Shown: positions 23,974-38,774 of the stretch, piece after piece
How the letters are laid out: every line of letters starts with the position of its first letter
Numbering within the stretch: the first letter of the stretch is position 1
DNA from: a virus
Lineage: Duplodnaviria > Heunggongvirae > Uroviricota > Caudoviricetes
Virus record (IMG/VR): IMGVR_UViG_3300017917_003366
Length of the DNA stretch: 64,000 nucleotides
Strand: one strand, 5' to 3'
The notes under the pieces: model-generated
Seen by the model: the letters and a program-made list of their open reading frames with translations, nothing else
Databases searched by the model: none
Told to the model about the DNA's origin: nothing
Translations under genes and position numbers: made by a program

Positions 23974-24194
23974 ATAATTCGTTTGTTTATCTCGTGTAGA
24001 ACCTCAACACTATCATATCTCGGAGAGTAAATGAAGTCCCATAATGTTTTCCTTTTACTGAAAGGATGTGGTTGGGACATTGCCCATTTCTTACCCCATT
24101 CAAAATCTTCAACCGACCATCTTAAAGGTCTGTTTGGTTTCTTTACAAATAATCTTCTAAAAAATAATATTAACCACATATCAATAAATATCAA
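23970..24194 (-). CDS. Hypothetical protein (74 aa)
   Basis: ORF. Confidence 0.35.
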   Translation of the reverse strand: MIFIDMWLILFFRRLFVKKPNRPLRWSVEDFEWGKKWAMSQPHPFSKRKTLWDFIYSPRYDSVEVLHEINKRII

Positions 24195-25408
24195 TTACTT
24201 AAAGGTGCTTTTATTGTTGGGTGCGATTCATAATTCAATAGTTCAAAATTATGAATACTATAATAATCCAAATCTAACTTGTTTGGGTTAGGTTTTCCAT
24301 GTTCAAATAAAGTACGACTTATATTCAATGTTGGTAATTTATATGGTTCTCTGGTACGATATGGTATTTTATAAATTTCATAGTACTCACTCATACCCCC
24401 ACCAAACGGCGCCAAATCTTTTATGGCCATTTCATAACCATTTGGACCCATGGCATTTTTTAACATCTCTTCTCTTTCTTCATGAGAATACTTTCTACCA
24501 ATCTGTTCCTTCGCTTGTTCGATATGGTTTGAATATAGATGTACATCACCTAAGTTACCAATCAATTCATCAGGAACCATATTAACTTCTTTAGCGATGA
24601 TTTCAAGTAGTAAACCATAAGAAGCAATATTGAATGGTAAACCTAAGAATGTATCCACTGAACGTTGATTCCACATTAATGAGATTGCTCGTTTTGGAAC
24701 TCTTAAACTATCCATATGGACGTGATGATAATCCGAGTTTCTATTTAATGGGTCTCTTGTTTTGTTGAAGTAATCAATTCGTTCATCCAAGTTCAACTCT
24801 CTTGTATAAACCTGAAATCCGTAATGACAAGGTGGAAGTACCATTCGGTTTAATTCACCTACATTCCAAGCATTAACCATTAATCGTCTTGAGTCTGGAT
24901 TGTTTTTAAGGTCATTGATTAGGTTTGCGATTTGGTCTGTGTTAGAATTTAATCCTTCCCAACTTCTCCATTGTTCACCATACACGGGACCGAGTTCACC
25001 CCACTTTTTAGCAAACTCATCATCTGTTTTGATTTTGTTGATGAACTCTTCTTGTGTAAAAAACTTATAAGTACCCCTTTCAGTTTTTAACATTTCATCA
25101 TTAGCCAAAATATCTGGGTTTGATGATTTATAATTCTTATAAGCATCACCATCCCAAATATGACAACCATTATCAACCAAATACTTGATGTTGGTGTCTC
25201 CTCTTAGAAACCATATCAACTCGGTTACCATAGTTTTCCAAGCCATCTTCTTAGTAGTTAGAAGAGGAAACCCTTCACTCATCTTGTGACGGATTTGTCT
25301 ACCGAATACTGAAATAGTGCCGGTACCTGTTCTGTCTTTCTTCTCCACACCATTATCTATGATGTCCTGAAGAAGTTTCTGATATTGTTTATCAATATTA
25401 TTCATCAT
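24191..25408 (-). CDS. thyA: Thymidylate synthase (ThyA) family enzyme, unusually long (405 aa) with two internal insertions
   Basis: Canonical ThyA blocks in order: DRTGTGTISVFG, FPLLTTKK, ELIWFLRGDTN, GELGPVYGEQWRSW, PPCHYGFQVY (catalytic Cys), GLPFNIASYGLL (Asn retained, so a dUMP substrate), DVHLYSNH and C-terminal HPTIKAPLS. Insertions of about 40 aa before LGPVYG and about 30 aa after the Cys block. Confidence 0.8.
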   Translation of the reverse strand: MMNNIDKQYQKLLQDIIDNGVEKKDRTGTGTISVFGRQIRHKMSEGFPLLTTKKMAWKTMVTELIWFLRGDTNIKYLVDNGCHIWDGDAYKNYKSSNPDILANDEMLKTERGTYKFFTQEEFINKIKTDDEFAKKWGELGPVYGEQWRSWEGLNSNTDQIANLINDLKNNPDSRRLMVNAWNVGELNRMVLPPCHYGFQVYTRELNLDERIDYFNKTRDPLNRNSDYHHVHMDSLRVPKRAISLMWNQRSVDTFLGLPFNIASYGLLLEIIAKEVNMVPDELIGNLGDVHLYSNHIEQAKEQIGRKYSHEEREEMLKNAMGPNGYEMAIKDLAPFGGGMSEYYEIYKIPYRTREPYKLPTLNISRTLFEHGKPNPNKLDLDYYSIHNFELLNYESHPTIKAPLSN

Positions 25409-27694: not shown

Positions 27695-27874
27695 ATGGGA
27701 TGTGGATGTAAAAAAAGAAATCAAACCCCTGTTCAACCATCGAACACTGTGGTAATGACTGAAGGTCAATCGACTACTACTCAACAAATCAATCTTGTTG
27801 ACCAGCAACAAGTGGAGTTATTAGTAAGGAAGATTGAGGAAATCAACGACACTTTAGAGGAAACTGAGGAATAA
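27695..27874 (+). CDS. Small ORF (59 aa, N-terminus MGCGCKKRN...) followed by a strong terminator
   Basis: ATG at 27695, TAA at 27872-27874. A perfect hairpin terminator follows 12 nt downstream. Not in the track (shorter than 60 aa). Confidence 0.35.
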   Translation: MGCGCKKRNQTPVQPSNTVVMTEGQSTTTQQINLVDQQQVELLVRKIEEINDTLEETEE

Positions 27875-27885
27875 TCACTACATAA

Positions 27886-27912
27886 ATCGCGACATCATGT
27901 CGTGATTTTTTT
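27886..27912 (+). terminator. Strong rho-independent terminator (atcgcgacat-c-atgtcgtgat + TTTTTT)
   Basis: 10-bp stem (one G-U pair) followed by a 6-nt T tract. It separates the small ORF from the glycan operon. Confidence 0.65.
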
Positions 27913-27970
27913 ATCTAAACCATATATATTTATTATATACAGATATAATTTTTATATAAAATTTTAAACA

Positions 27971-28174
27971 ATGAGTAAAGAATCTAACACTAAGCTAACT
28001 AGCGTAAAAATCATCGACAAGAACTACTACGAATTCAAAAGAGTTACCCTCGGTTCTGATTTGACGTTACAAAAATTCGTTAACAGAGCTATCGATTTAT
28101 ATCTGAGAGAAAACGAGTTTAAAAATAAAATTGACATTCACGAAACCGGTGGAGTTAAAAACTCAAAGTACTAA
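27971..28174 (+). CDS. Ribbon-helix-helix (CopG/Arc-like) putative transcriptional regulator heading the glycan operon
   Basis: FKRVTLGSDLTLQKFVNRAIDLYLRENE has the beta-strand, helix, helix pattern of RHH proteins. Confidence 0.45.
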   Translation: MSKESNTKLTSVKIIDKNYYEFKRVTLGSDLTLQKFVNRAIDLYLRENEFKNKIDIHETGGVKNSKY

Positions 28175-28177
28175 TTC

Positions 28178-29536
28178 ATGAAGAAAAAGATTTTATTATT
28201 ATCCGATGATTTGAGAACAACATCGGGAGTCGGCACTATGTCCAAGGAAATTGTTCTCGGTACAATACACAAATACGATTGGGTTCAATTGGGTGGTGCA
28301 ATTAATCATCCTGAAGCCGGTAAAATTGTTGACATCAACGAAGATGTGAGAGAAAGAACAGGAGTAAAAGATGCAAATCTAAAAGTTATTCCTAACAATG
28401 GTTATGGTAACATATTCACTTTGAGAATGTTATTGGAGGTTGAGAAACCTGATGCCATTATACACTTCACTGACCCACATTACTGGCAATGGTTATATGA
28501 AGCGGAACATGAGATAAGACAACAGATTCCAATCTTGTACTATCATGTTTGGGATAACCTACCTGACCCTCTATTCAATAGGGATATCTATGAGAGTTGT
28601 GATTGGATTGGATGTATTTCCAAACAAACATACGGTCTTGTTAAAAGAGTTGGTTCAATTGATACGGAAGAATCGTACCAACCATTAAAGGATTGGCAAG
28701 TAAGTTATGTACCTCACGGTATCAACCCTGAAGTATTTAAACCGGTGGATACATTATCCGAAGAGTTAGGTAAACACATCTACAACAATAAAGAATATGA
28801 TTTCATTTTATTCTTTAACAACAGAAACATCAAGAGGAAACAACCAGGTGATGTTATCCTATCCTACAAATTATTCTGTGATTCACTTTCAAAAGAAGAA
28901 TCTGAAAGATGTTTACTCTTAATGCACACAACACCAATTGATGAGAATGGTACAGACCTAACCGCAGTTGCTAAAAGTGTTTGTCCCGATTATGATGTTA
29001 AATTTATTAATATAAAATTGGAACAGGAGAAGTTAAATGAGTTATACAATACAGTTGATTGTACAATTAACATCTCCAACAATGAAGGTTTTGGTTTAGG
29101 TACCGCAGAAAGTATCATGGCCGGTACTCCGATTATTGTAAATGTTACAGGTGGTTTACAAGACCAATGTGGTTTCAATTACACGGCAGAGGATTATGTT
29201 ACATTCGGTTCATTACATGATAAGAAAACACACGGTTCAACTAAACACGGTGAATGGGTTGTACCAGTGTGGTCTGATGTAAATAATTTAAATGGTTCTG
29301 TACCAACACCATATATCTACGAAGATAGAGTTAACAACTATATGGTTGCCGACGCGATTGGTCAAGTTTATAGTTGGGGAAGAGAAGAAAGAAAACGTAG
29401 AGGTTTGATTGGTAGAGAATGGGCAATGAAGAACCTATCAAATAAAGTTATGTGTGATGGTATTATCGATGGAATCGAAACCACATTCAAAAACTATAAA
29501 CCAAGAAAGAGATTTGATTTATATAAAATAGTATGA
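28178..29536 (+). CDS. Glycosyltransferase, GT4-like (GT-B fold)
   Basis: N-terminal ILLLSDDLRTTSGVGT and C-terminal NISNNEGFGLGTAESIMAGTPIIVNVTGG match the GT4 E-x-FG...EAMAxGxPVI signature. Confidence 0.6.
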   Translation: MKKKILLLSDDLRTTSGVGTMSKEIVLGTIHKYDWVQLGGAINHPEAGKIVDINEDVRERTGVKDANLKVIPNNGYGNIFTLRMLLEVEKPDAIIHFTDPHYWQWLYEAEHEIRQQIPILYYHVWDNLPDPLFNRDIYESCDWIGCISKQTYGLVKRVGSIDTEESYQPLKDWQVSYVPHGINPEVFKPVDTLSEELGKHIYNNKEYDFILFFNNRNIKRKQPGDVILSYKLFCDSLSKEESERCLLLMHTTPIDENGTDLTAVAKSVCPDYDVKFINIKLEQEKLNELYNTVDCTINISNNEGFGLGTAESIMAGTPIIVNVTGGLQDQCGFNYTAEDYVTFGSLHDKKTHGSTKHGEWVVPVWSDVNNLNGSVPTPYIYEDRVNNYMVADAIGQVYSWGREERKRRGLIGREWAMKNLSNKVMCDGIIDGIETTFKNYKPRKRFDLYKIV

Positions 29537-30780
29537 TGAAACCATTTTTATTATTTAGAGGACCTGTTGAAACCATTAGCGGTTACGGTGCACACTCAAG
29601 AGATTTATTAAAAGCACTCCGTGATATGGACTTATTTGATATTAGAGTTGATTCATGTAATTGGGGTAACAATCCAAGAACAGCATTAAAGGACAAGAAT
29701 GAATTTCATGATTGGATTAAAGTAAATAAAATCCATTCAATAAGTTCTACTCCTGATGTGTATGTTCAAGTTACAGTACCAAGTGAGTTTCAAAGAATTG
29801 GTAAATTCAATATCGGAATTACTGCCGGGATTGAAACCACTCAAGCACCAAAGGATTGGGTAGATGGTTGTAACAGAATGGATTTGATTATTACCACTTC
29901 AAATTTCAGTAAGGAGGTTTTACTTCAAACAGTTTACAATGAAATGGATAAGATGACGGGTAAACTGATTAAACAATATAGAATTGAAAAACCTGTTGAG
30001 GTATTGTTTGAAGGTGTTGACACATCAATCTATAACAATAAATTTAATAGTTTGAATATTGGAATTAAGGAAGATTTTTGTTATCTTTTTGTTGGTCACT
30101 GGTTGAAAGGTGATGTAGGTCAAGATAGAAAGGATGTTGGTATGTTGATAAAGTGTTTTGTTGAATCATTTAAAGACAAGGAAGACCAACCGGCTTTGAT
30201 TTTGAAAACATCCGGAGCTAGTTTCTCAGTTAAAGAAAGAGAATCGTTCAAAAAGAAAATAAAAGATTTGGTAAAGGGTGTTGATAATCCTCCTCCAATC
30301 TATTTGTTGTTCGGACAACTAACCGATGAAGAAATGAATGAGTTATATAACCACCCAAGAATTAAATCCATGGTAACCTTAACAAAGGGTGAGGGATTTG
30401 GTAGACCTTTATTGGAGTTTTCAATGACGGGTAAACCAATCATTGCATCAAATTGGTCAGGTCACAGGGATTTCTTACCAATGGACAAGGCAATTATGAT
30501 AGGCGGTTCATTGACGGAAGTTCATTCTAGTGTCGTTGATAATTTCATCATCAAAGATTCAAAATGGTTTACCGCAAATTACGGTGAGTGTGTTGAAGTA
30601 TTAAAAGTGGTGAAAGAAGATTATGATAAATTCTATGAGAACTCACAGGTTTTAATGGAAGAGAACAGAGAGAAGTTCTCAATGGAGAAGATGAAAGAAA
30701 AGTTCGAATCAATCATTACACCATTTACAATAAAACCAAAAGAAGTTAAAATAAACATACCTCAATTAACTAAACTATAA
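29533..30780 (+). CDS. Glycosyltransferase, GT4-like (GT-B fold)
   Basis: TLTKGEGFGRPLLEFSMTGKPIIASNWSGH matches the GT4 C-terminal signature; ATGA overlap with the upstream gene. Confidence 0.6.
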   Translation: MMKPFLLFRGPVETISGYGAHSRDLLKALRDMDLFDIRVDSCNWGNNPRTALKDKNEFHDWIKVNKIHSISSTPDVYVQVTVPSEFQRIGKFNIGITAGIETTQAPKDWVDGCNRMDLIITTSNFSKEVLLQTVYNEMDKMTGKLIKQYRIEKPVEVLFEGVDTSIYNNKFNSLNIGIKEDFCYLFVGHWLKGDVGQDRKDVGMLIKCFVESFKDKEDQPALILKTSGASFSVKERESFKKKIKDLVKGVDNPPPIYLLFGQLTDEEMNELYNHPRIKSMVTLTKGEGFGRPLLEFSMTGKPIIASNWSGHRDFLPMDKAIMIGGSLTEVHSSVVDNFIIKDSKWFTANYGECVEVLKVVKEDYDKFYENSQVLMEENREKFSMEKMKEKFESIITPFTIKPKEVKINIPQLTKL

Positions 30781-31016
30781 TGGATTTTAAATTCGGTAGA
30801 GATAATAATGATTTTTCTTTAAAGATTAGAAGAGCTAGAAGATTAAGAGCAGGGTGGACACCCGAGCTTGCACAAGACATTCAAGCTTTTCATAATATTG
30901 ATGCCGAATCAGAACTAGTTAGATTATTAACCGAAGAAATCACGAGACAGGTTGACAGGGAGATTATAAATGAACTTATGAATAAAGATAAATTTGAATT
31001 TAAATTCGGAAGATAA
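30780..31016 (+). CDS. Small protein (78 aa) beginning and ending with an FKFGR motif
   Basis: MDFKFGRDNNDFSL...KDKFEFKFGR. The motif recurs at the start of the next ORF. Confidence 0.4.
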   Translation: MDFKFGRDNNDFSLKIRRARRLRAGWTPELAQDIQAFHNIDAESELVRLLTEEITRQVDREIINELMNKDKFEFKFGR

Positions 31017-31291
31017 TGGGATTGAAGAATTTTAAATTTGGTAGAGATAACTATACAAATGATTTTACACTAACCGATTTTAATCTACCCTTATTAAGAA
31101 TCGCACCCGCAGTTGTGTTTCAACAAACAGAATGGGTGTTTCAATTTGATGAGGGGGAGCCTGTGGTATTTGCTTCACAACAAGAAGAACCCAATCTAAC
31201 AATCACATTAAACAATACAAACCACGCATCAATAGAATTCACAGACAATAACAAAAAATTTAAAATATTCGCAAGGGAGAGACAACAATGA
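31016..31291 (+). CDS. Small protein (91 aa) beginning with NFKFGRDNYTNDFTL
   Basis: Shares the N-terminal FKFGRDN-x-NDF(S/T)L motif with the upstream ORF; the DNA differs by synonymous changes, indicating protein-level conservation. Confidence 0.4.
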   Translation: MGLKNFKFGRDNYTNDFTLTDFNLPLLRIAPAVVFQQTEWVFQFDEGEPVVFASQQEEPNLTITLNNTNHASIEFTDNNKKFKIFARERQQ

Positions 31292-31914
31292 AAATCAGCT
31301 ATGGAATCACGGTATGTAATGAATTAAAGGAAATTAAAACCTTATTACCATTATTAATTGAACACAAAAGAGTTGAGGACGAAATTATAGTCCTGTACGA
31401 TGAGAAAAATGGTAAACAAGAAGTCCTTGATTATCTTTTACCATTTAACAAACTACCCAATGTTCAAACATGGAGAGGAATGGTGTTTGTTAATGACTTC
31501 GCCATTTGGAAAAATAAATTAAATGGATATTGTTCAGGAGATTATATTTTCCAACTCGATGCAGATGAATTGATTACAAAAGAATTGATACAGGATTTAC
31601 CATCTGTAATCGAATCAAATCTTGAGGTTGATTTATTTGTGTTCCCAAGAATCAATACCGTGAAAGGAATTACTGATGACCACATTAAGAGATGGGGATG
31701 GAAAATGGATGAGAAAGGTAGAATCAACTTTCCTGATTGGCAAGGAAGATTGTACAAGAAGGGTTTAAACTGGCATGGAAAGGTTCATGAGAAAATCATC
31801 GGAGCCAAAACATATTCCCTAATGCCTGAGGATGATGGCTATTGTATCATTCACGAAAAGACGATTGAAAGACAAGAAAGACAAAATAATTTATATTCAA
31901 AAATTACTAAGTAA
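31288..31914 (+). CDS. Glycosyltransferase family 2-like
   Basis: N-terminal ISYGITVCNELKEIKTLLP...IIVLYDE resembles the GT2 start (SVIIPTYNE...). Confidence 0.5.
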   Translation: MKISYGITVCNELKEIKTLLPLLIEHKRVEDEIIVLYDEKNGKQEVLDYLLPFNKLPNVQTWRGMVFVNDFAIWKNKLNGYCSGDYIFQLDADELITKELIQDLPSVIESNLEVDLFVFPRINTVKGITDDHIKRWGWKMDEKGRINFPDWQGRLYKKGLNWHGKVHEKIIGAKTYSLMPEDDGYCIIHEKTIERQERQNNLYSKITK

Positions 31915-32669
31915 TGAAATTAATACTAGCAACAGGTTCTGATTTAAACTACCTAAGTAAGATGAGACCTTACTTAAAATCTATAGAATCAAATTCAAAC
32001 TTTGATAAAAACATTTTGGTGTTTGTTGGTGAGGATGAGATACAACTTCCCTTTAAAAATATTGACATAGTTAACTTACCTGTGGGTAGAATTCAATCGT
32101 TGAATAGTAATAAGTGTGTTCAACATGGTGACTTCTTAAATTCTCCGGCGTTTGATTCTATGACTGAAGATGATGATGTTATCATCTATACTGATGGTGA
32201 TATAATCATACAAAGAAACTTGTCTGAAGATGAAATTAAATTCTATAATTCATTCAAAGATGGGGACGTGTATGTTGGATACAACGCATCACCAACAGAT
32301 ACGTTGGCAGATGAGGCGACGAGATTAGGAAAGACGGGTGCAGTTTCACCATACGTGAATATTGGTGTTTGGGGAATAACAAAGGTTTATAACACTGGTG
32401 TTCTTGCCATGAATAAAAAAACATGGGTGAAATTATTAGAGAGATACAACACATTATATCCTCACGTAGAACCTATGTTCTATCATTATGCAAAACAACA
32501 ATGGTTGATTTCATATATCATTGGTACCGACAAAGAGTTTAATGTAATCGAAATGGGTTATGATGTTCATAACCATAAACATTACCCAAGTCCTGTTGGA
32601 ACTTCTCAAGATGAAAATGGAGACGTTTACTTTAATAATAAAAAAGTTCTATTCAAACATAAGTGGTAA
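31914..32669 (+). CDS. Putative nucleotide-sugar-dependent glycosyltransferase (DxD-containing, GT-A-like)
   Basis: IIYTDGDIIIQ (DxD-like). Weak. Confidence 0.35.
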   Translation: MKLILATGSDLNYLSKMRPYLKSIESNSNFDKNILVFVGEDEIQLPFKNIDIVNLPVGRIQSLNSNKCVQHGDFLNSPAFDSMTEDDDVIIYTDGDIIIQRNLSEDEIKFYNSFKDGDVYVGYNASPTDTLADEATRLGKTGAVSPYVNIGVWGITKVYNTGVLAMNKKTWVKLLERYNTLYPHVEPMFYHYAKQQWLISYIIGTDKEFNVIEMGYDVHNHKHYPSPVGTSQDENGDVYFNNKKVLFKHKW

Positions 32670-33541
32670 TGAAATTAATCATTTTTGTCTTTGCTGGTCG
32701 AGAATATTGTATGAATTTACAATTACCATACATTATCAAAATCTTAAATGAGTATCCCGATTCGGAATACCACGTATGGAATTTTGCCAGAAATGAAAAT
32801 GACAACCAATATCTGAACACATTACCAAGTAAACACGATAGGATAAAAATCTTCAATGATTATTATGAAGGACCGAATCCTATAAAAGAATGTACTAAGA
32901 AACCAAACCACATTTGTTATTGTGAAAAATGTAGAACAGGTAAATGGTCTGAACCTTATAAATTCTATTCAAGTGATGAATATTCTGATTGTTTGTTTTT
33001 GAAATTGGATGATGATATTGTTTATATGGATTTAGATGGATTTGGTTCCTACCTAAAAACGATTAAAGACAATCCCGAATGTGTCATTAGTGCCAATGTC
33101 ATAAACAACGGAGTATGTGCATACTTTGACCCAATTATTAAAGAAAAAGTTATATCTAATAGATTAATTTTAAAAGAGGATAAATTTAATAAATGGTTTA
33201 TACTTTGTGTTGATTATAATTTTTTAAACCTATGTCATGATATGTTTTTATCTAATGAGTATACCAAAGTGGAGAATGTGATTGCATTTACTGATAGTAA
33301 AATCAGCATCAACACCATTGGGTTCAACCATAACATAATGTGTGAAGTTGGCGGAATACTTTCAAAATTGGCCGATAAGATACATGATGAAATGGTTTTC
33401 AGTCATCACACAACTGTTTTAATTTATCAAAATTTTATAACATCTCATTTACATTTTAGTGACCAAAATGCTAAGATGTCTGAAGATGTAAAAAAAACAT
33501 ATATTCAAAAGTATAAAGAATTATGCAGTACGATTATCTAA
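32663..33541 (+). CDS. Hypothetical protein, possibly a glycosyltransferase-like DxD protein
   Basis: LKLDDDIVYMDLDG. Weak. Confidence 0.35.
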   Translation: MVMKLIIFVFAGREYCMNLQLPYIIKILNEYPDSEYHVWNFARNENDNQYLNTLPSKHDRIKIFNDYYEGPNPIKECTKKPNHICYCEKCRTGKWSEPYKFYSSDEYSDCLFLKLDDDIVYMDLDGFGSYLKTIKDNPECVISANVINNGVCAYFDPIIKEKVISNRLILKEDKFNKWFILCVDYNFLNLCHDMFLSNEYTKVENVIAFTDSKISINTIGFNHNIMCEVGGILSKLADKIHDEMVFSHHTTVLIYQNFITSHLHFSDQNAKMSEDVKKTYIQKYKELCSTII

Positions 33542-34620
33542 TAGTAGGGACCGGATTCTTCGGTTCCATTTGTGCACATGAATTAACTAAATCAGGTAAG
33601 AAGGTCTTAGTTATTGATTCTCGTAATCACATTGGCGGGAACTGTTATACCGAGAATAAAGATGGTATCAATATTCAAGTATACGGTGCACATATTTTTC
33701 ATACATCAAATAAAGAAGTGTGGGATTGGATTAATCAATTCGCTGAGTTCAATACCTATCGTCACCATGTACTGGCAACATATGATAATGAGATTTACTC
33801 ATTACCATTTAGTATGTTTACATTCAATAAATTGTGGGGTGTTAATTATCCACACGAAGCCCAAGAGAGGATTAAATCACAATCTATCAGTATTGATGAA
33901 CCAACTAACTTAGAGGAGCAAGCAATCAAACTTGTGGGTAAAGATGTTTACGAGAAACTAATCAAAGGTTACACTCATAAACAGTGGATGAAGGACCCAA
34001 AGGAATTACCAAAAGAAATCATTAAACGTTTACCTGTTCGATTCACATGGGACAATAATTATTTCTTTGACAAGTATCAAGGAATCCCAATCGGTGGATA
34101 CACTCAGATATTTGAAAAGTTATTAGAAGGTATCGATGTTCAATTGAACACTAACTACTTTGATGGTAACTTACCTCCACATAAGAAAGTAATTTTCACA
34201 GGACCAATCGATAAGTTCTTTGGATACAAGTATGGTAAGTTAGAATATAAAACGGTTAGGTTTGAGCACGACCACTTGAATCAAATAAACTATCAGGGAG
34301 TACCTGTGATGAACTATACCAACTACGAAGTACCATACACCAGAATTATTGAACATAAACATTTCGAAGGTGTTGATACCAACTCAACATGGATTACACG
34401 TGAATACCCAACACAATACATCCCTGATGTTACCGACCCTTATTATCCGGTGAATGACAAAGAGAATAACGAAATGTTCTCCAAGTACAAAGAAGAAGCC
34501 GAACAGGTAAAAGAATGTGTGTTATTTGGTGGTAGATTGGGTGAGTACAAATACTACGACATGCATCAGGTAATAGAATCGGCACTTAACTTCATTAAAA
34601 AAGAAATCAATGGACATTAG
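33523..34620 (+). CDS. glf: UDP-galactopyranose mutase
   Basis: YDYLIVGTGFFGSICAHELTKSGKKVLVIDSRNHIGGNCYTE...YGAHIFHTSNKEVWDWINQF...YSLPFSMFTFNKLWG closely follows the Glf consensus (FAD-binding GxGxxG plus HIFH block). Confidence 0.85.
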   Translation: MQYDYLIVGTGFFGSICAHELTKSGKKVLVIDSRNHIGGNCYTENKDGINIQVYGAHIFHTSNKEVWDWINQFAEFNTYRHHVLATYDNEIYSLPFSMFTFNKLWGVNYPHEAQERIKSQSISIDEPTNLEEQAIKLVGKDVYEKLIKGYTHKQWMKDPKELPKEIIKRLPVRFTWDNNYFFDKYQGIPIGGYTQIFEKLLEGIDVQLNTNYFDGNLPPHKKVIFTGPIDKFFGYKYGKLEYKTVRFEHDHLNQINYQGVPVMNYTNYEVPYTRIIEHKHFEGVDTNSTWITREYPTQYIPDVTDPYYPVNDKENNEMFSKYKEEAEQVKECVLFGGRLGEYKYYDMHQVIESALNFIKKEINGH

Positions 34621-35713
34621 TTTAGTACTCGCAGTATTCAATAAATTAGATTTAACTAAGGATTGTTATAAAAGAATCCGTGAGATATATCCCGATGCCC
34701 CTTTTGTTATCAGTAGCGGTGGTTCAACAGATGGAACCAAAGAATGGTTAGAATCTTTAGAGGACGATAATCTTTCCTATATCCACGATGACGATAAATT
34801 AGTTTTCTCTGAGAACTACAATGCTGCAATTAAGTTGGTGGATACCGAGAAACTAGTTCTTATTCACAACGATATGGTCATTGGGAGACACTTTCTTGAG
34901 AATTTGGATAGATTACTCACACCAGATACTTTGCTCTCTTATACGACGTTAGAACCACCAATTTTCAAAGGTCATAACAGACCGGGTAAGTTGATAGTGG
35001 ACATGGGTTACGGATTCCATGATTTCAAATGGGAAGAGTTCGACGAGTTTGTTGAGGAGAATAAATCCGATTGTAAAATATATGACGGAGCAGTATTCTT
35101 TATGAGTGGATATAAGAAGATGTTTGAGGATGTTGGATTCTTTGATGGGTTTAGTTTTGTTCCCGCATTTGCTGAGGATGATGACTTCTTAATCAGAGCC
35201 AAACTCAAAGGATATAAACTCAAAACAACCACTTGTGCTATCACATATCACTTTGTTTCTCAAACATCAAGATTCAGTGAAGAATTCAAGAAGGACAGAA
35301 TGAAGTATGAGATTAACTCAAATAGAAACTTCGTCCGTAAATGGGGCATCCCAATTCCAGCATTTAACGAGTTACGTTATTGGGAGGATGATGGATTCAG
35401 ATATAAAACATTTACCATGGGTTTAACCACCCGAAGTAGAGCGAGATTGTTTGAGGTGGAACCATTCTTCGATAAGATTGATTTAGGGATGATTCCTGAG
35501 GATTATTTGGAGAATGAACAGAAGAACACCCGATATGATTTAAGGTCAAAATTCGTCCTTACAGACCTTGTAGATGTGATGGTATATGAAATGAGTCCAA
35601 TGACTGATGAGGATATCTATGTCCTTCAAAAATTACGTCTTTCGATACCTTACTATGAACCGGGTGAATACAAAGTTGGTTCATTAAAAATAGAAATAAA
35701 AAAGGGGGTATAA
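34610..35713 (+). CDS. Glycosyltransferase family 2
   Basis: ISLVLAVFNKLDLTKDCYKRI...SSGGSTDGTKEWL (GT2 N-terminal signature) and LIHNDMV (DxD-like). Confidence 0.55.
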   Translation: MDISLVLAVFNKLDLTKDCYKRIREIYPDAPFVISSGGSTDGTKEWLESLEDDNLSYIHDDDKLVFSENYNAAIKLVDTEKLVLIHNDMVIGRHFLENLDRLLTPDTLLSYTTLEPPIFKGHNRPGKLIVDMGYGFHDFKWEEFDEFVEENKSDCKIYDGAVFFMSGYKKMFEDVGFFDGFSFVPAFAEDDDFLIRAKLKGYKLKTTTCAITYHFVSQTSRFSEEFKKDRMKYEINSNRNFVRKWGIPIPAFNELRYWEDDGFRYKTFTMGLTTRSRARLFEVEPFFDKIDLGMIPEDYLENEQKNTRYDLRSKFVLTDLVDVMVYEMSPMTDEDIYVLQKLRLSIPYYEPGEYKVGSLKIEIKKGV

Positions 35714-35726
35714 AACCCCCTTTAAC
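35696..35726. terminator. Bidirectional terminator hairpin (aaaggggg-tataaaa-ccccttt) at the convergent junction
   Basis: 8-bp stem; the stop codon of the GT2 gene lies in the loop; T/A runs on both sides. Confidence 0.6.
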
Positions 35727-35744: not shown

Positions 35745-36209
35745 TTATTCAGTTGGTTTTTGTACCAACATGAACAATAAGTTATAATCGTCTGTCGTTT
35801 CTCCTACCTTATCTAAATCCTCCATTGTTAGTGGAGTATATTCAATTTCTTTTTCTTCACTCAATAATGCATTGAATTCGTTTTGGAATTCTACGTATTG
35901 TGGATTGAGTTCTCTTGAAATGACTTTATCATTTTCATCTTTTTGTTCGATGAATACTCCGATTTGAATTCCACCTTTACCATCGTCTTCACCGTGCTTT
36001 TGGATAATTTCATCACGGAGGGTTTCAATTGATTTGCGTTCTGCTGCCAATCTATCACCCAATTCACTCAACCAATACTTGGTCTTCAACGGTAATTTAT
36101 GTTTTCTAAATCCGACGAAAACTTCTTTTCCGTTTTGTGGATTCACAAAACCATTAATCTCACTTTCTAATTGTAGAACTTGTCCTAATTTTAATGTTAG
36201 TTTTGCCAT
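35745..36209 (-). CDS. Hypothetical protein (154 aa)
   Basis: ORF. Confidence 0.45.
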   Translation of the reverse strand: MAKLTLKLGQVLQLESEINGFVNPQNGKEVFVGFRKHKLPLKTKYWLSELGDRLAAERKSIETLRDEIIQKHGEDDGKGGIQIGVFIEQKDENDKVISRELNPQYVEFQNEFNALLSEEKEIEYTPLTMEDLDKVGETTDDYNLLFMLVQKPTE

Positions 36210-36262: not shown

Positions 36263-36823
36263 TCAATACCACCAACCTTTACCACTAAATTCCGCAAAAT
36301 CAAATAATAAATTGATTCTGTCTGTGGTCCCGTAATTATTTACTTCATGTTGACGCATATTATTCAATTCAAACATTTGTCCAATCTCGAAGAATCTACG
36401 TTCATCCTCAACAATGTATTCTACTTTATCCCACTCACAAAATAATGGAACATGAATACGATGTGATAGATTATATGAACCCCCAACATCTTTGTGTGAT
36501 TTAATTGATGAACCTGCCGGTAATCGAACCAAAACCGCTCGAACAACATAACCCCAATTATATTCGTGTTCTAATTTTTTTAATAGGGGGTCAATTAGTT
36601 TTTCAAAATCCAATCTTTCATACAATTCATGTTTGGTACCATTGAAATGTCTGAAGTCATTGTCATAGATTATTGCGAGAGTTTTTGATGCACCATGCAT
36701 TGGATTAGCATCTTGTCTCCAAGTGTATCTATCCCACTCATCGGTAGGGATTTCTGAAACCTTGTCCAACCATGGTTGGATATCAACTTTACCGTAATCT
36801 TTGAAATTTTCTTTTATATTCAT
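36263..36823 (-). CDS. Aspartyl/asparaginyl beta-hydroxylase-family cupin (2OG-Fe(II) oxygenase-like)
   Basis: VRLPAGSSIKSHKDVGGSYNLSHRIHVPL...EDERRFFEIGQMFELNNMRQHEVNNYGTTDRINLLFDF matches the Asp_Arg_Hydrox core (HxD...RxHxPL...H). The track start at 36931 is a GTG; the ATG at 36823 gives an ATGA overlap with the upstream gene. Confidence 0.55.
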   Translation of the reverse strand: MNIKENFKDYGKVDIQPWLDKVSEIPTDEWDRYTWRQDANPMHGASKTLAIIYDNDFRHFNGTKHELYERLDFEKLIDPLLKKLEHEYNWGYVVRAVLVRLPAGSSIKSHKDVGGSYNLSHRIHVPLFCEWDKVEYIVEDERRFFEIGQMFELNNMRQHEVNNYGTTDRINLLFDFAEFSGKGWWY

Positions 36824-37824
36824 ACGATAGTAAATAATGCGTAAGTTAACATTAATGCAATCCAAATAATGAGTGCTTTTAGGTATGTCATAAATCCTGT
36901 GTGGAAATACTTTTGACCTATTGGTAAACACTTATGTGATGGTGAAATTAGATATGCCGAATACTCCAATGTGAAAAACAAAACAAAGTACTTCATACCA
37001 AATGCTGCGGTTAGTAAACTAACAATTCCCGCATACTTAGATGACGAACCCAAGAGGAATGATGCAATAAATCCAATCATCGAAACAAGAATGATATTCT
37101 TTGTTGGGATATAATGTTTTATGAATGTTTCAATGTAATCATAATTGGCATTAACTATGTTTCCAAGAATAATAACAAATGCAACAATCACAAGTAATTC
37201 CCAATTAATATAATCCAATAGTTTATACCATGAATTGGAATAACTGATTAGATAGAACGTGAACACAGTAAATGCCAAGAAGTAGTAAGGAGTGAAACAA
37301 CTTATCAGTATTGTACTTAGGAATGGTAGAACAACCAATGTCATGTTCTTTTTGTTTATCGGTTCATCCTTTACTTCAATATCAATTTCGTCATCGTTAA
37401 GTGACATGATATAAAATGTGATGTACAATGCGGTTATCAATAAAAGTGGCCACACATAAGACATGAATGTCATATATGATAACCCCAAGACCGCCATTGG
37501 GATGATTACAGTTTTTTCAAGGGGTGACCATAGATAATAGTGGTGAGTTGCCAAGTAATCTATGATACCAAACTTCTTTCTCTTCTTATTATCTACAGGT
37601 GCAATACTATTCAACATACTGGCAGATAATGCAACTCTACCGGGTATTGGGAGTACCCCACCAAACAATGATACAAGAAAGACAACGGCTTTCTTTGATT
37701 TGATTTTTTGTGTTAGTAACCTAAATAAATCCGTAAGGTATCCTCTTTCTTTGAGGATACCCGTTACGAACATTATTAAAAGTAAATAAACAAGAAACTC
37801 TTGTCCTTTAATTAAAATCTCCAT
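36820..37824 (-). CDS. Polytopic inner-membrane protein (about 9-10 TM segments), function unknown
   Basis: Hydrophobic helices throughout; translationally coupled to both neighbours. Confidence 0.55.
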   Translation of the reverse strand: MEILIKGQEFLVYLLLIMFVTGILKERGYLTDLFRLLTQKIKSKKAVVFLVSLFGGVLPIPGRVALSASMLNSIAPVDNKKRKKFGIIDYLATHHYYLWSPLEKTVIIPMAVLGLSYMTFMSYVWPLLLITALYITFYIMSLNDDEIDIEVKDEPINKKNMTLVVLPFLSTILISCFTPYYFLAFTVFTFYLISYSNSWYKLLDYINWELLVIVAFVIILGNIVNANYDYIETFIKHYIPTKNIILVSMIGFIASFLLGSSSKYAGIVSLLTAAFGMKYFVLFFTLEYSAYLISPSHKCLPIGQKYFHTGFMTYLKALIIWIALMLTYALFTIV

Positions 37825-38774
37825 GCGAAAATTATTGTGCTACGTGACGCTTTAGATTCTTGTGTGAATCCTGGCATCGTTTCGACGGTTAAATAAGCGT
37901 GACCATTAAAACGGTATTGGATTAGCGGTCCGAAATAAACTTCGTTACTTCCACCACCATAATCATTACGGCGATACATTCCACTTACACCTAATGTCAA
38001 ATCATTATTGATGATATGACCATAAGATGCGGTTGATGCGTACTCGGGTTCTCTATCTTCTTTGGTGTCCGCCAAATTACCTTCATAGATAAGGTTTAAA
38101 CCCCAAATACCTTTATTACCGATTCTGTCACCAAGTAATAACTTTGGTTCGATACCCCATCTACCATCTAACATTTTCATTTCATAGTAGATAGTTGGGT
38201 TGCCCCAAATCTTACCCCAATCGGCAAGTGCGTATCTTAATTCCCATGAGAAGCCCCTCCAACTGAAGGTCTTGTTGCCATTTTCACCATCATAAACGGT
38301 ATGAGAATACAGGTCTAATTGTAATCTCTTTCCTAAACCGAAGGTGAATTCATCCCTCATTCTAATTTGGGCCGGACCGTCCCTGCGGTCACGAATGTCA
38401 AACCATTTCTCATACATGACCGAACCTGGTGGGTTCATCACGTAGACCCTAGTTGAAGGGAACATCCTCATTGTACTCCACAAAGGTTGATTGTATGGAC
38501 CTACCTTTGTTTGGAGGGGATATTTCTTTGCAGTTACAATAACAGTTGCCATTTCCAATGGACCTCTAATGGTATCTTCTACCTTTGTTGTGTCCTTGGT
38601 TCTTGCCTGTTCTGAACCCCTACTTATAGCCGAATTGCTGTATTGTGCATTTACAGATGTTGCACCCATCATAACAAGGAGAAACACTAACTTCCCCGTT
38701 TTGTTCCCAACAAACCCAATGATTGTTGAAACAGCGTTGACCAACCAAAATGATGGTCTTGTTGTTGTTTTCAT
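37812..38774 (-). CDS. Outer-membrane beta-barrel protein candidate (320 aa)
   Basis: Signal-peptide-like segment (LVFLLVMMGATSVNA-QY). Gly/Tyr/Trp-rich alternating strands and C-terminal ...IIFAWRF beta-signal. Confidence 0.5.
   Translation of the reverse strand: MKTTTRPSFWLVNAVSTIIGFVGNKTGKLVFLLVMMGATSVNAQYSNSAISRGSEQARTKDTTKVEDTIRGPLEMATVIVTAKKYPLQTKVGPYNQPLWSTMRMFPSTRVYVMNPPGSVMYEKWFDIRDRRDGPAQIRMRDEFTFGLGKRLQLDLYSHTVYDGENGNKTFSWRGFSWELRYALADWGKIWGNPTIYYEMKMLDGRWGIEPKLLLGDRIGNKGIWGLNLIYEGNLADTKEDREPEYASTASYGHIINNDLTLGVSGMYRRNDYGGGSNEVYFGPLIQYRFNGHAYLTVETMPGFTQESKASRSTIIFAWRF

What the first reader, a model, noticed from the sequence alone, without database searches (positions are those of the whole stretch)
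27971..35726. Plus-strand 10-gene glycan-biosynthesis island with UDP-galactopyranose mutase, bracketed by strong terminators
This is the only long plus-strand block in an otherwise minus-strand region. It opens with an RHH-type regulator, followed by two GT4 and two GT2 glycosyltransferases, two further DxD proteins, Glf and two small FKFGR-motif proteins, nearly all with 1-4 nt overlaps. It ends in a bidirectional hairpin terminator (35696-35726) and is preceded by a perfect hairpin (27886-27912). Glf implies synthesis of a galactofuranose-containing glycan. In a phage this could modify the host surface polysaccharide (a receptor-masking or seroconversion-like function), glycosylate virion proteins, or glycosylate hydroxymethylated DNA bases. 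The opposite-strand placement and terminator bracketing suggest a horizontally acquired moron.
Basis: partly seen in the sequence, partly recalled or inferred. Interest (0 to 1): 0.75.

Follow-up and report, generated by a model that had tools for sequence, protein, structure and literature searches.

The report
Phage sugar-gene island with mini-capsid protein
A freshwater T4-like jumbo phage carries a self-contained operon of soluble sugar-adding enzymes, and inside it sits a small, rearranged copy of the most conserved piece of the phage's capsid protein; this small protein belongs to a widespread family that I found no description of, which hints that the sugars go onto the virus particle.

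Summary
The plus-strand block is real: 10 tightly coupled ORFs (27971-35713) lie between two conserved hairpins. Glf is a full-length UDP-galactopyranose mutase (TIGR00031 404.7 bits against a cut-off of 303.75; 3e-133 to E. coli Glf). Two GT4, two GT2 and one PHROG glycosyltransferase are supported. The 'RHH' call and one 'DxD' protein are not.

The 'horizontally acquired moron' reading is not supported. GC and GC3 match the flanks. Every relative examined has the locus at the same place, on the same strand, with the same terminator. Only the cargo varies, down to gene presence or absence between strains that are 97-99% identical.

ORF4 (30780-31016) is a fragment of the T4-type major capsid protein gp23 (Pfam 2.8e-14). 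It belongs to a family of small 'mini-capsid' proteins of about 80-150 aa, with dozens of clear members and possibly hundreds. Longer members are circularly permuted, and most carry matching FKFGR-type motifs at both ends. Seven of nine contexts examined lie inside this glycan locus, and no deposited phage genome carries one.

No cluster protein is membrane-bound. Best reading (confidence about 0.4): cytoplasmic glycosylation of a phage-made acceptor, probably virion protein. Rivals are DNA glycosylation and host-surface modification.

The parts
27695..27874 (+). Small ORF (59 aa, starts MGCGCKK) that precedes the locus in all relatives (57-61 aa)
   Evidence: No family match.
27884..27908 (+). 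Intrinsic-terminator hairpin plus T-run, ending the small ORF's transcript and separating it from the operon
   Evidence: It sits at the same position with different, compensating stem sequences in L015, L017, L019, L025, L026, L028 and L030.
27922..27959 (.). AT-rich palindrome (TATATA-N5-7-TATATA type) 10-50 nt upstream of the first gene; a candidate promoter or operator
   Evidence: Sequence read. Comparable palindromes occur upstream of the RHH-like gene in 7 relatives. Function is inferred.
27971..28174 (+). 67-aa conserved first gene (KLTSVK..LQK.VNRA.DLY); RHH-like only by pattern
   Evidence: Alignment A7 has 14 invariant columns across 9 loci, including cultured phage immuto gp182. 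No Pfam, NCBIfam, PADLOC or PDB-profile support.
28178..29536 (+). GT4-1, a GT-B glycosyltransferase (452 aa), soluble
   Evidence: PF20706 29.9 bits against 26 and PF00534 27.5 against 26.4. phrog_2170 6.8e-21. Best PDB hit is the chlorovirus NY-2A glycosyltransferase B736L, 3.8e-8. 47.8% identical to Flavobacterium phage immuto gp181. No transmembrane segment.
29533..30780 (+). GT4-2, a GT-B glycosyltransferase (415 aa), soluble
   Evidence: PF00534 26.9 bits against 26.4. phrog_2170 4.9e-20. Weak PDB hit to WbaZ-1, 2.5e-4.
30780..31016 (+). ORF4: mini-gp23, 78 aa. It comprises the capsid-protein segment RRLRAGWTPELAQD..FHNIDAE..DREI bracketed by MDFKFGR at the start and FEFKFGR at the end
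   Evidence: PF07068 Gp23 2.8e-14, profile positions 146-196 of 376. phrog_138 major head protein 1.9e-14. 52% identical to residues 355-402 of a 589-aa capsid protein. Family shown. Absent in L015-L018.
30784..30805 (+). Direct repeat copy 1 (FKFGRDN codons). Copies 2 and 3 lie at 30997-31018 and 31029-31050
   Evidence: Copy 1 and copy 3 share 21 of 22 nt. The repeats bracket the roughly 237-bp segment that is missing in L015 and L017.
31016..31291 (+). ORF5: 91-aa beta-rich small protein. It starts with an FKFGR module and ends with FKIFARERQQ
   Evidence: 38 homologues at 59-97% identity with both end motifs invariant. It shares only the N-terminal module with the mini-gp23 family (hhalign 88%). 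It is not related to the capsid protein.
31288..31914 (+). GT2 (GT-A) glycosyltransferase, 208 aa, overlapping ORF5 by 4 nt
   Evidence: PF00535 26.3 bits against 23.3. The nearest named relatives are the peptide or protein glycosyltransferases SunS (NCBIfam 3.2e-6; PDB 7msp 4e-4), 7msk and GmaR; all are weak. Conserved in immuto gp178 and Mel-JY01.
31914..32669 (+). 251-aa protein of unknown family (contains YTDGD)
   Evidence: No significant family or PDB match. Conserved in close relatives.
32663..33541 (+). 292-aa putative glycosyltransferase; a strain-variable cassette (32683-33507)
   Evidence: phrog_4447 3.1e-46. Absent in L001, L004 and L007 and replaced by a methyltransferase in L002 and L003, although the flanks are 97-99.5% identical.
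33523..34620 (+). Glf, UDP-galactopyranose mutase (365 aa)
   Evidence: PF03275 3.3e-75. TIGR00031 404.7 bits against 303.75. 3e-133 to E. coli Glf 1I8T over residues 3-360, with GxGxxG, PVRFT, YTRIIEHKHF, PYYPVND and EYKYYDM all conserved.
34610..35713 (+). GT2 glycosyltransferase, 367 aa; last gene of the operon
   Evidence: PF00535 3.9e-10, 40.4 bits against 23.3. Conserved in all GT4-type relatives.
35701..35723 (.). G5/C5 hairpin at the convergent junction with the minus-strand gene 35745-36209
   Evidence: The same hairpin with T-runs on both sides occurs in L015 and L016.

Best explanation
The block is one transcription unit of a freshwater T4-like jumbo phage; related contigs are 235-318 kb. 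It occupies a fixed locus whose frame is conserved: a small ORF, a terminator, an AT-rich palindrome and a 65-67-aa first gene. The enzyme cargo of the locus is exchangeable.

Shown:
- The operon encodes only soluble proteins: two GT4, two GT2 and one further glycosyltransferase, a bona fide UDP-galactopyranose mutase, and two small proteins translationally coupled to the glycosyltransferases.
- ORF4 is a mini-version of the capsid protein gp23.
- ORF5 shares ORF4's N-terminal FKFGR module.

Inferred:
- Glf supplies UDP-galactofuranose.
- The glycosyltransferases build a Galf-containing oligosaccharide in the cytoplasm, directly on a phage-made acceptor rather than on a lipid carrier.
- The most likely acceptor is virion protein, that is, the capsid.
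- The mini-capsid protein and ORF5 work with the enzymes as acceptor, docking adaptor or assembly-linked regulator, connecting the glycan machinery to the capsid protein.
- Cargo swapping between strains diversifies the glycan.
For: - Operon structure and soluble proteins.
- Glf.
- Glycosyltransferases.
- No Wzx, Wzy, Gtr or initiating transferase, and no transmembrane segment in any of the 11 proteins.
- The core order small gene / GT4 / GT4 / (small gene) / GT2 is shared with Flavobacterium phage immuto and Microcystis phage Mel-JY01. These phages infect hosts of different phyla, which argues for a phage-intrinsic substrate.
- ORF4 is a gp23 fragment.
- The mini-gp23 family has 847 hits at E<=1e-5, and the best 120 are all 79-214 aa. 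Bracketing motifs and circular permutation are shown.
- Seven of nine mini-gp23 contexts lie inside this glycan locus, although the enzymes differ completely between them: GT4/GT4/GT2, GT2_5/DegT, Rml-type and GT92.
- Start and stop codons overlap between the glycosyltransferase genes and the small genes.
- The nearest solved or named relatives are a chlorovirus glycosyltransferase for GT4-1 and the peptide or protein glycosyltransferases SunS, 7msk and GmaR for the 208-aa GT2.
- The only thymidylate-synthase homologue in the window is canonical: the Leu before PPCH is kept and PFNIASY carries Asn. The criteria for this come from PMC13326640.
Against: - Nothing here shows a glycosylated protein.
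- The seven glycan-linked contexts come from one broad phage lineage at one syntenic locus, so they are not independent.
- Two other contexts, the marine L024 and L029, have no recognisable glycosyltransferase.
- Relatives L015-L018 keep the operon without a mini-gp23.
- Immuto and Mel-JY01 have the glycosyltransferase core without any FKFGR protein.
- The SunS and B736L similarities are weak, and all glycosyltransferase folds resemble one another.
- ORF4 and ORF5 have no Ser/Thr-rich tract typical of O-glycan acceptors.
- A Glf in T4-like rhizobiophage RL38J1 has been assigned to DNA glycosylation (PMC13326640).
- Only 64 kb of a genome of more than 230 kb was seen.
- AlphaFold models of both small proteins are of low confidence.
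Confidence: 0.4

Rival explanations
1. DNA glycosylation. The glycosyltransferases transfer Galf and other sugars onto hydroxylated or hydroxymethylated pyrimidines in phage DNA to evade restriction, as proposed for the T4-like rhizobiophage RL38J1. On this reading the mini-gp23 is unrelated cargo.
For: - PMC13326640 assigns a phage Glf to a Galf-containing DNA hypermodification.
- Glf homologues occur in the T4-like Rhizobium, Sinorhizobium and Aeromonas phages.
- All the enzymes are soluble.
- Strain-level diversification of the glycan would also suit an arms race with restriction systems.
Against: - The only ThyA homologue in the window keeps the canonical residues (Leu before PPCH; Asn in PFNIASY) and is 2.7e-73 to true thymidylate synthases.
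- In RL38J1, Glf stands alone and is not in an operon with glycosyltransferases.
- No glycosyltransferase here is named as a DNA glycosyltransferase by PHROGs, Pfam or NCBIfam.
- No DNA-modification gene was recognised among the window ORFs that were scanned.
- Limits: most of the genome is unseen, and my test for a second ThyA-like gene in immuto was too insensitive to count.
Confidence: 0.2
2. Host-surface remodelling, in the manner of seroconversion or receptor masking. The enzymes add Galf-containing side chains to host LPS, CPS or glycoprotein precursors during infection to block superinfection or the re-adsorption of progeny.
For: - Clusters of glycosyltransferases with nucleotide-sugar enzymes are classically annotated as LPS or CPS genes in large phages (general knowledge). 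PHROGs files the glycosyltransferases under 'moron, auxiliary metabolic gene and host takeover'.
- Cargo polymorphism resembles that of O-antigen loci.
- Relatives carry Rml-type, DegT and epimerase genes typical of surface-sugar pathways.
Against: - There is no membrane protein, flippase, polymerase, Gtr-type component or initiating phosphoglycosyltransferase.
- The glycosyltransferase core is shared by phages of Flavobacterium and Microcystis, whose envelopes differ.
- This is a lytic T4-like phage, so there is no lysogen to seroconvert.
- This reading does not explain the capsid-derived partner.
Confidence: 0.2
3. The mini-gp23 is functionally independent of the sugars. It would be an inter-phage competition or anti-defence protein: a dominant-negative capsid fragment against co-infecting T4-like phages, or a decoy for host sensors of the capsid protein. 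On this reading it merely resides in a hypervariable island. This can be true together with any reading of the glycan genes.
For: - Minis keep exactly the most conserved gp23 segments. From my memory of T4 gp23, these include the stretch corresponding to the Gol region.
- Two contexts have no glycosyltransferase.
- Homing endonucleases flank the locus in L026 and L028.
- ORF4 is at most about 66% identical to any of 81 sampled capsid proteins, so it is not a recent self-copy.
Against: - ORF4 is translationally coupled to the glycosyltransferases.
- The mini-gp23 persists at this locus while every enzyme around it is replaced.
- There are no PADLOC matches and no literature matches.
Confidence: 0.25
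4. ORF4 is non-functional recombination debris: a capsid-gene scrap captured between repeats.
For: - ORF4 is missing in L015-L018. It is flanked by 21/22-nt direct repeats, and its 5' end is a near-copy of ORF5's 5' end.
Against: - The identical 78-aa sequence is indexed in 95 blocks of the contig collection.
- Dozens of bracketed homologues keep an intact ORF, the same architecture and the capsid protein's invariant residues at 40-60% identity.
- End motifs are conserved at the amino-acid level despite synonymous codon differences.
Confidence: 0.07

Closest known systems
Glycosyltransferase cluster of Flavobacterium phage vB_FspM_immuto (gp182-gp169, NC_055915) and of Microcystis phage Mel-JY01
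   Same: These are the closest cultured relatives. The order is the same: small first gene, GT4, GT4, (small gene), 207-226-aa GT2, then variable sugar-modifying genes. GT4-1 is 48% identical, ThyA 58.5% and the first gene about 40%.
   Different: There is no Glf, no FKFGR protein and no mini-gp23. Immuto has a 152-aa zinc-ribbon protein in that slot. The products of these clusters are uncharacterised as far as I could find.
Mycobacteriophage virion glycosylation operons (Freeman et al. 2023, cited in PMC12619734)
   Same: A phage-encoded cluster of soluble glycosyltransferases proposed here, and shown there, to decorate capsid proteins in the cytoplasm.
   Different: In that system the acceptors are C-terminal tails of the capsid and tail-tube subunits. 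No capsid-derived helper protein is known, the glycosyltransferases are unrelated, and the hosts are Actinobacteria. Glycosylation is not demonstrated here.
Chlorovirus capsid-protein glycosylation machinery (GT4-1's nearest solved relative is NY-2A B736L, PDB 3oy2)
   Same: Virus-encoded cytoplasmic glycosyltransferases that act independently of host pathways (general knowledge). The sequence match is 3.8e-8 over the C-terminal GT-B half.
   Different: It is a eukaryotic virus with a different capsid fold. B736L's own substrate is, to my knowledge, not established.
Galf-containing DNA hypermodification of Rhizobium phage RL38J1 (PMC13326640)
   Same: A T-even-like myovirus that encodes its own Glf; 47% identical to the Glf here.
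   Different: That Glf stands alone among hypothetical genes, and the pathway needs a ThyA-like 5-hydroxy-dCMP synthase carrying N177D and L143E. The ThyA here is canonical.
T4 gp23 major capsid protein (PF07068)
   Same: ORF4 residues 18-68 match profile positions 146-196. Longer minis also match the N-terminal VRR..VQPM..G..F segment.
   Different: Minis cover at most a quarter of the fold and lack most of the capsid protein's length. They join the two segments in reversed order and add FKFGR-type end motifs. They cannot be capsid subunits.
Glycocin systems (SunA peptide with the SunS S-glycosyltransferase)
   Same: Small protein genes lie immediately upstream of, and overlap, a GT2 whose best named match is SunS.
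   Different: The score is 26 bits against a cut-off of 350. The GT2 lacks SunS's C-terminal peptide-binding half. ORF4 and ORF5 contain no cysteine, there is no leader peptide, and no exporter or protease gene lies in the operon.

Membership tests
UDP-galactopyranose mutase (Glf; TIGR00031 / PF03275) | Full-length match above the curated equivalog cut-off | tested here: met
   404.7 bits against 303.75, residues 2-361 on profile positions 1-376. PF03275 3.3e-75.
UDP-galactopyranose mutase (Glf; TIGR00031 / PF03275) | N-terminal FAD-binding GxGxxG, and the conserved Arg and Tyr substrate-site motifs | tested here: met
   The alignment to E. coli Glf 1I8T (3e-133) conserves IVGtGfFG, PVRFT, NNYF.D.YQGIP, YTRIIEHKHF, PYYPVND and EYKYYDM. 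Which residues are catalytic is from my memory of the Glf literature.
GT4 / Glycos_transf_1 (GT-B) | Pfam PF00534 above the gathering score | tested here: met
   GT4-1 scores 27.5 against 26.4 and GT4-2 scores 26.9 against 26.4. Both are marginal, and only the C-terminal half matches. phrog_2170 gives about 1e-20.
GT2 / Glycos_transf_2 (GT-A) | Pfam PF00535 above the gathering score | tested here: met
   The 208-aa protein scores 26.3 against 23.3 and the 367-aa protein scores 40.4 against 23.3.
Ribbon-helix-helix (CopG/Arc/MetJ) regulators | Match to an RHH profile or to a solved RHH protein | tested here: not met
   No Pfam, NCBIfam or PHROG-named match. A profile of 9 homologues against the PDB finds no RHH protein. 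Only the strand-helix-helix residue pattern is suggestive.
T4-type major capsid protein (PF07068) | Coverage of the capsid fold, with profile segments in their native order | tested here: not met
   ORF4 covers 51 of 376 profile positions. In P0205 the two matched segments are in reversed order relative to a 589-aa capsid protein. ORF4 is therefore homologous to the capsid protein but is not one.
O-antigen / seroconversion systems (GtrABC, Wzx/Wzy-dependent) | Membrane components: flippase, bactoprenol-linked glycosyltransferase, polymerase or initiating transferase | tested here: not met
   No such Pfam or NCBIfam families. The maximum 19-residue Kyte-Doolittle hydropathy is 1.36, so no transmembrane segment is predicted in any cluster protein.
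Phage DNA glycosylation pathways (T4 hmC-glucosyl; 5-hydroxy-C glycosyl) | A ThyA-like pyrimidine hydroxymethylase or hydroxylase with N177D and L143D/E | tested here: inconclusive
   The single ThyA homologue in the window is canonical (criteria in PMC13326640). More than 170 kb of the genome was not available, and the tblastn test in immuto was insensitive.
Phage virion-glycosylation systems | Glycan demonstrated on capsid or tail proteins | not testable with these tools
   This needs mass spectrometry or glycan staining of virions.
Glycocin (SunS/SunA-type) systems | SunS-family glycosyltransferase above the cut-off, a Cys-containing leader-peptide substrate, and an exporter | tested here: not met
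   26.3 bits against 350. ORF4 and ORF5 have no Cys. No transporter gene lies in the operon.

The most novel reading that the evidence does not exclude
Mini-gp23 proteins are a new class of capsid-derived small proteins. They are a circularly permuted fragment built from the capsid protein's most conserved segments, closed by matching FKFGR-type end motifs. They would physically couple a phage's own glycosylation machinery to its capsid protein. Three roles are possible: a docking adaptor that brings the glycosyltransferases to capsid subunits, a surrogate acceptor that then decorates the capsid, or an assembly sensor acting with the conserved first gene. If so, hypervariable capsid glycosylation would be a widespread trait of environmental T4-like jumbo phages that has not been recognised.
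Probability: 0.25. Interest if true: 0.8.

Novelty: new variant of a known kind. Interest (0 to 1): 0.6.

Why it matters
Phage-encoded glycosyltransferase clusters are common in large environmental phages and are usually labelled 'LPS genes' without evidence. Here the gene content (all proteins soluble, no export machinery), the conservation across phages of unrelated hosts, and above all the recurrent capsid-derived partner protein point to the phage particle as the target.

If that is right, it would extend virion glycosylation from mycobacteriophages and giant algal viruses to abundant freshwater T4-like phages, with strain-level variation in the glycan.

Independently of the sugar question, the mini-capsid family is a well-defined and testable object. 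It has dozens of clear members and possibly hundreds, none of them in a cultured phage. Its members are permuted and carry co-varying end motifs. I found no description of it.

Tried and rejected
- Megablast of the block against 50,697 phage records: no match.
- RHH assignment: no Pfam, NCBIfam, PADLOC or PDB-profile support.
- The 251-aa protein: no family; only KfiA at E=0.67.
- The 367-aa GT2 and the 292-aa protein: no useful PDB match.
- AlphaFold2 on ORF4 and ORF5 with family alignments: pLDDT 61 for both, so the models are not usable. ORF4 shows only two helices, and ORF5 shows six strands that include both end motifs. Foldseek with the ORF5 model against the PDB found nothing with E<=0.001.
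- ORF5 as a hidden capsid fragment: rejected (hhalign probability 0.15).
- T4 late-promoter motif TATAAATA: 6 sites against 9.5 expected, and none placed before the operon.
- Sigma-70 promoter-like site count and terminator count: not above shuffles.
- Foreign origin judged by composition: rejected.
- Literature searches for FKFGR, FKFFRG, capsid decoys, and the immuto or Mel-JY01 glycans: nothing relevant.
- Search for a mini-gp23 in cultured phages with three different queries: only true capsid genes were hit, about one place per record.
- Many database 'small gp23 proteins' (for example P0282, P0279, P0260) are frameshifted pieces of real capsid genes and were set aside.
- Test for a second ThyA-like gene in immuto: too insensitive to use.
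- Link to the 'moraphages' of PMC12619734 (freshwater, 200-307 kb, Bacteroidota hosts predicted, four core glycosyltransferase families): plausible but not established.

Full report
OBSERVATION

They are packed with overlaps of 1-19 nt or a 3-nt gap. This is the only long plus-strand block in a window otherwise read on the minus strand, and GC skew flips with it.

Both hairpins exist, at 27884-27908 (with a T-run) and at 35701-35723. A consensus scan finds no more terminator-like sites than shuffles do (6 against 5.6), so the scan by itself proves nothing. What makes the hairpins credible is comparison. In seven relatives the same intergenic position holds a hairpin with a quite different stem sequence, always followed by a T-run and then by an AT-rich TATATA..TATATA palindrome just before the first gene. 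The G5/C5 hairpin after the last gene recurs in L015 and L016. The block is therefore a discrete transcription unit.

WHAT GENOME THIS IS

There is no close DNA match among 50,697 deposited phage genomes. The flanks encode a thymidylate synthase, a tryptophan halogenase, a carbamoyltransferase, a UDP-glucose dehydrogenase and a 3373-aa ORF.

The closest cultured relative is the T4-like Flavobacterium phage vB_FspM_immuto: ThyA is 58.5% identical, GT4-1 47.8% and the capsid segment 48%. The exact ORF4 protein is indexed in 95 blocks of the metagenome contig collection; the contigs I could place are freshwater. Homologues of ORF5 sit on contigs of 245-318 kb. So this is an abundant, uncultured, freshwater T4-like jumbo phage, probably of Bacteroidota. 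It may belong to the recently named 'moraphages' (PMC12619734), but I could not establish that.

THE ENZYMES

Glf is beyond doubt. It scores above the NCBIfam equivalog cut-off (404.7 against 303.75). It matches E. coli Glf at 3e-133 across the whole length, with the FAD motif and the conserved Arg and Tyr motifs intact.

- The two GT4 proteins only just pass Pfam's threshold, but they hit a PHROG glycosyltransferase family at about 1e-20.
- The two GT2 proteins pass Pfam.
- The 292-aa protein is a PHROG glycosyltransferase at 3e-46.
- The 251-aa 'DxD' protein and the 'RHH' first gene have no support from any profile library or from a profile search of the PDB. The first gene is nevertheless conserved in every relative, including immuto gp182.
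- None of the eleven proteins has a predicted membrane segment. There is no flippase, polymerase, Gtr component or initiating transferase.

THE TWO SMALL PROTEINS

This is where the finding changes character. ORF4 (78 aa) matches the T4 major capsid protein family at 2.8e-14 (Pfam) and 1.9e-14 (PHROG major head protein). It aligns to the true capsid gene of more than 2,000 phages. It is 52% identical to residues 355-402 of a 589-aa capsid protein from a related jumbo contig. From my memory of T4 gp23 this is the strand-plus-long-helix segment around residues 263-322; I did not verify that with a structure. The real capsid gene is not in the window.

ORF4 starts MDFKFGR and ends FEFKFGR, and ORF5 starts MGLKNFKFGR. 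ORF5 (91 aa) has 38 homologues at 59-97% identity, in which the N-terminal FK.GR and a C-terminal FK(I/L)FAR are invariant. ORF5 is unrelated to the capsid protein, but it shares its first 24 columns with the ORF4 family (hhalign 88%).

A FAMILY OF MINI-CAPSID PROTEINS

An exhaustive phmmer search with ORF4, followed by a profile search, found 847 proteins at E<=1e-5. The best 120 are all 79-214 aa long, and many lie in the interior of contigs of 30-235 kb. About a tenth of the short ones are frameshifted pieces of real capsid genes and were discarded.

The genuine ones fall into three types:
- Bracketed forms, such as MEPFKFFSGY...DFKFFRGW and MRLTDFKLLKG...FKTFKLLRG.
- A marine form, MEPNKSIPSFCFE...GVIGIKSEIKPHTLI.
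- A form ending ..TRRINGG.NHGIDYLNHW.RIG.

Longer members add a second capsid segment (VRR..DLV.VQPM..G..F). In the capsid protein this segment lies far upstream of the first one. In P0205, residues 16-74 match capsid residues 346-402 and residues about 77-120 match capsid residues 68-114. These proteins are therefore circular permutations of the two most conserved capsid segments, not truncations.

In 44 bracketed members the N- and C-terminal pentapeptides co-vary within a protein: 3.89 of 5 positions are identical, against 3.08 for shuffled partners, and 0 of 10,000 shuffles reach the observed value. The sequences are not independent, so this is a description and not a probability. The motifs differ by synonymous codons, so the conservation is at the protein level.

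Three tblastn searches found no such gene in any deposited phage genome. The paper library has no mention of the motifs.

THE LOCUS IN RELATIVES

- Close strains (97-99.5% identical) differ by clean cassettes. The 292-aa glycosyltransferase (32683-33507) is absent in three contigs and replaced by a methyltransferase in two, and one contig has a 65-bp deletion in the 208-aa GT2.
- At 73-82% identity (L015-L018) the operon is the same but ORF4 is missing. The missing 237 bp are bracketed in the window by 21/22-nt direct repeats of the FKFGR codons, and ORF4's 5' end is a near-copy of ORF5's.
- More distant relatives (L019, L028, L030) have GT4-GT4-ORF5-like-mini-GT2, which is the reverse order of the two small genes.
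- Still others (L025, L026 and the contig carrying P0052) keep the upstream frame and place a mini-gp23 directly after the first gene. The enzymes that follow are entirely different: GT2_5 with DegT, an acetyltransferase and an epimerase; Rml-type genes; or GT92.
- Two contexts, a marine contig with an extra fragment from the C-terminus of the capsid protein and L029, show no recognisable glycosyltransferase.

So the frame and the mini-capsid gene persist while the sugar enzymes are exchanged.

WHAT IT MOST LIKELY DOES

Shown: this is an operon of soluble glycosyltransferases, a UDP-Galf-forming mutase and two co-translated small proteins, one of which derives from the capsid protein.

Inferred: the operon carries out cytoplasmic assembly of a Galf-containing glycan on a phage-made acceptor. 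Five arguments favour a phage-intrinsic acceptor, and a protein one:
1. The operon has no lipid-carrier or export machinery.
2. The glycosyltransferase core is shared by phages of Flavobacterium and Microcystis.
3. The capsid-derived partner recurs at this locus.
4. The closest solved or named relatives are a chlorovirus glycosyltransferase for GT4-1 and the peptide or protein glycosyltransferases SunS, 7msk and GmaR for the 208-aa GT2. All of these matches are weak.
5. The thymidylate synthase is canonical, not a base-hydroxylating homologue (criteria from PMC13326640).

I put this reading at about 0.4. DNA glycosylation is a serious rival (0.2), because a phage Glf was recently assigned to exactly that in rhizobiophage RL38J1. 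There, however, the gene stands alone. Host-surface modification (0.2) fits the usual annotation but not the missing membrane steps. The mini-gp23 might be unrelated to the sugars, acting in competition between phages or as a decoy (0.25, and compatible with any of the above). That ORF4 is mere debris is unlikely (0.07).

COMPARISON WITH WHAT IS KNOWN, AND NOVELTY

As a phage glycosyltransferase island with Glf, this is a new member of a known kind. The part that departs from anything I could find described is the mini-capsid family and its attachment to the glycan locus. I therefore rate the whole as a new variant of a known kind, with interest 0.6.

LIMITS

- No experiment exists on this locus or its relatives.
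- Only 64 kb of the genome was seen.
- The association statistics are small and phylogenetically dependent.
- The structure predictions failed.
- Several statements about T4 gp23 regions and Glf catalytic residues rest on my own knowledge and are marked as such.

Noticed in passing
window 32683-33507; L001-L008: Strains 97-99.5% identical differ by clean gene cassettes in the slot between the 251-aa gene and glf. The slot is empty in some, holds a 186-aa TylF-like methyltransferase in others, and holds the 290-292-aa glycosyltransferase in the rest. L001 also has a 65-bp deletion that truncates the 208-aa GT2.
   Followed up: yes
window 27922-27959 and the equivalent sites in L015, L017, L019, L025, L026, L028, L030: A conserved AT-rich palindrome (TATATA-N5-7-TATATA) lies between the terminator and the first gene of the operon. 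It is a candidate operator or promoter, possibly for the conserved 65-67-aa first-gene product.
   Followed up: partly
mini-gp23 family (P0044-P0278), window 30780-31016: The N- and C-terminal FKFGR-type pentapeptides co-vary within each protein (FKLL..FKLL, FKFF..FKFF, FKFGR..FKFGR). Many proteins end exactly at ..FKFGR or ..FKLLRG. This is unexplained; possibilities are paired strands, two copies of one docking or cleavage motif, or gene conversion.
   Followed up: partly
L024 6760-7441 (TARA marine contig, 131 kb): A marine phage has two adjacent minis. One is an 84-aa protein made of the C-terminal conserved strands of gp23; the other is a 146-aa permuted mini. They lie next to a Mom-like gene and three large proteins of unknown function that share repeated DWDW/DFDW motifs. 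No recognisable glycosyltransferase is present.
   Followed up: partly
window 24191-25408 (-): The thymidylate synthase is 405 aa, well above the 264-321 aa of the bacterial enzymes it matches best. The extra length comes from inserted segments (the match to the PDB enzyme falls into three pieces), but the catalytic motifs are canonical. Relatives have 414-429 aa versions.
   Followed up: partly
window 46067-56188 (-): A single 3373-aa ORF, presumably a giant structural or fibre protein. It was not analysed.
   Followed up: no
window 58972-61778 (-): A Nol-like carbamoyltransferase and a UDP-glucose dehydrogenase lie side by side, followed by three ORFs with no family match. This may be a second sugar-related module in the window.
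   Followed up: no
window 36263-38774 (-): Just downstream of the operon, on the other strand, lie an Asp/Arg beta-hydroxylase-like protein, a 334-aa DUF401 membrane protein and a 320-aa protein. The 320-aa protein looks, by eye only, like an outer-membrane beta-barrel. All three are conserved in relatives.
   Followed up: no
L017 6254-6550; L026 5936-6529; L028 879-1862: The locus attracts other insertions. A 98-aa chorismate-mutase-like gene lies between ORF5 and the GT2 in L017. GIY-YIG (L026) and LAGLIDADG (L028) homing endonuclease genes lie at the upstream edge.
   Followed up: no
protein database hits P0282, P0279, P0260, P0251, P0263, P0262, P0275, P0274, P0061: Many short 'Gp23-domain proteins' in metagenome gene catalogues are frameshifted pieces of real capsid genes. 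They run into the capsid continuation ..RKGAAWNLRWDYNGW.. and then go out of frame. They would inflate any count of the mini family.
   Followed up: partly
window 9218-10168 (-), 697-1428 (-), 1866-2432 (-): An SPFH/Band-7 protein, a poly(A)-polymerase/CCA-adding head-domain protein and a glucosaminidase are encoded in the left part of the window.
   Followed up: no
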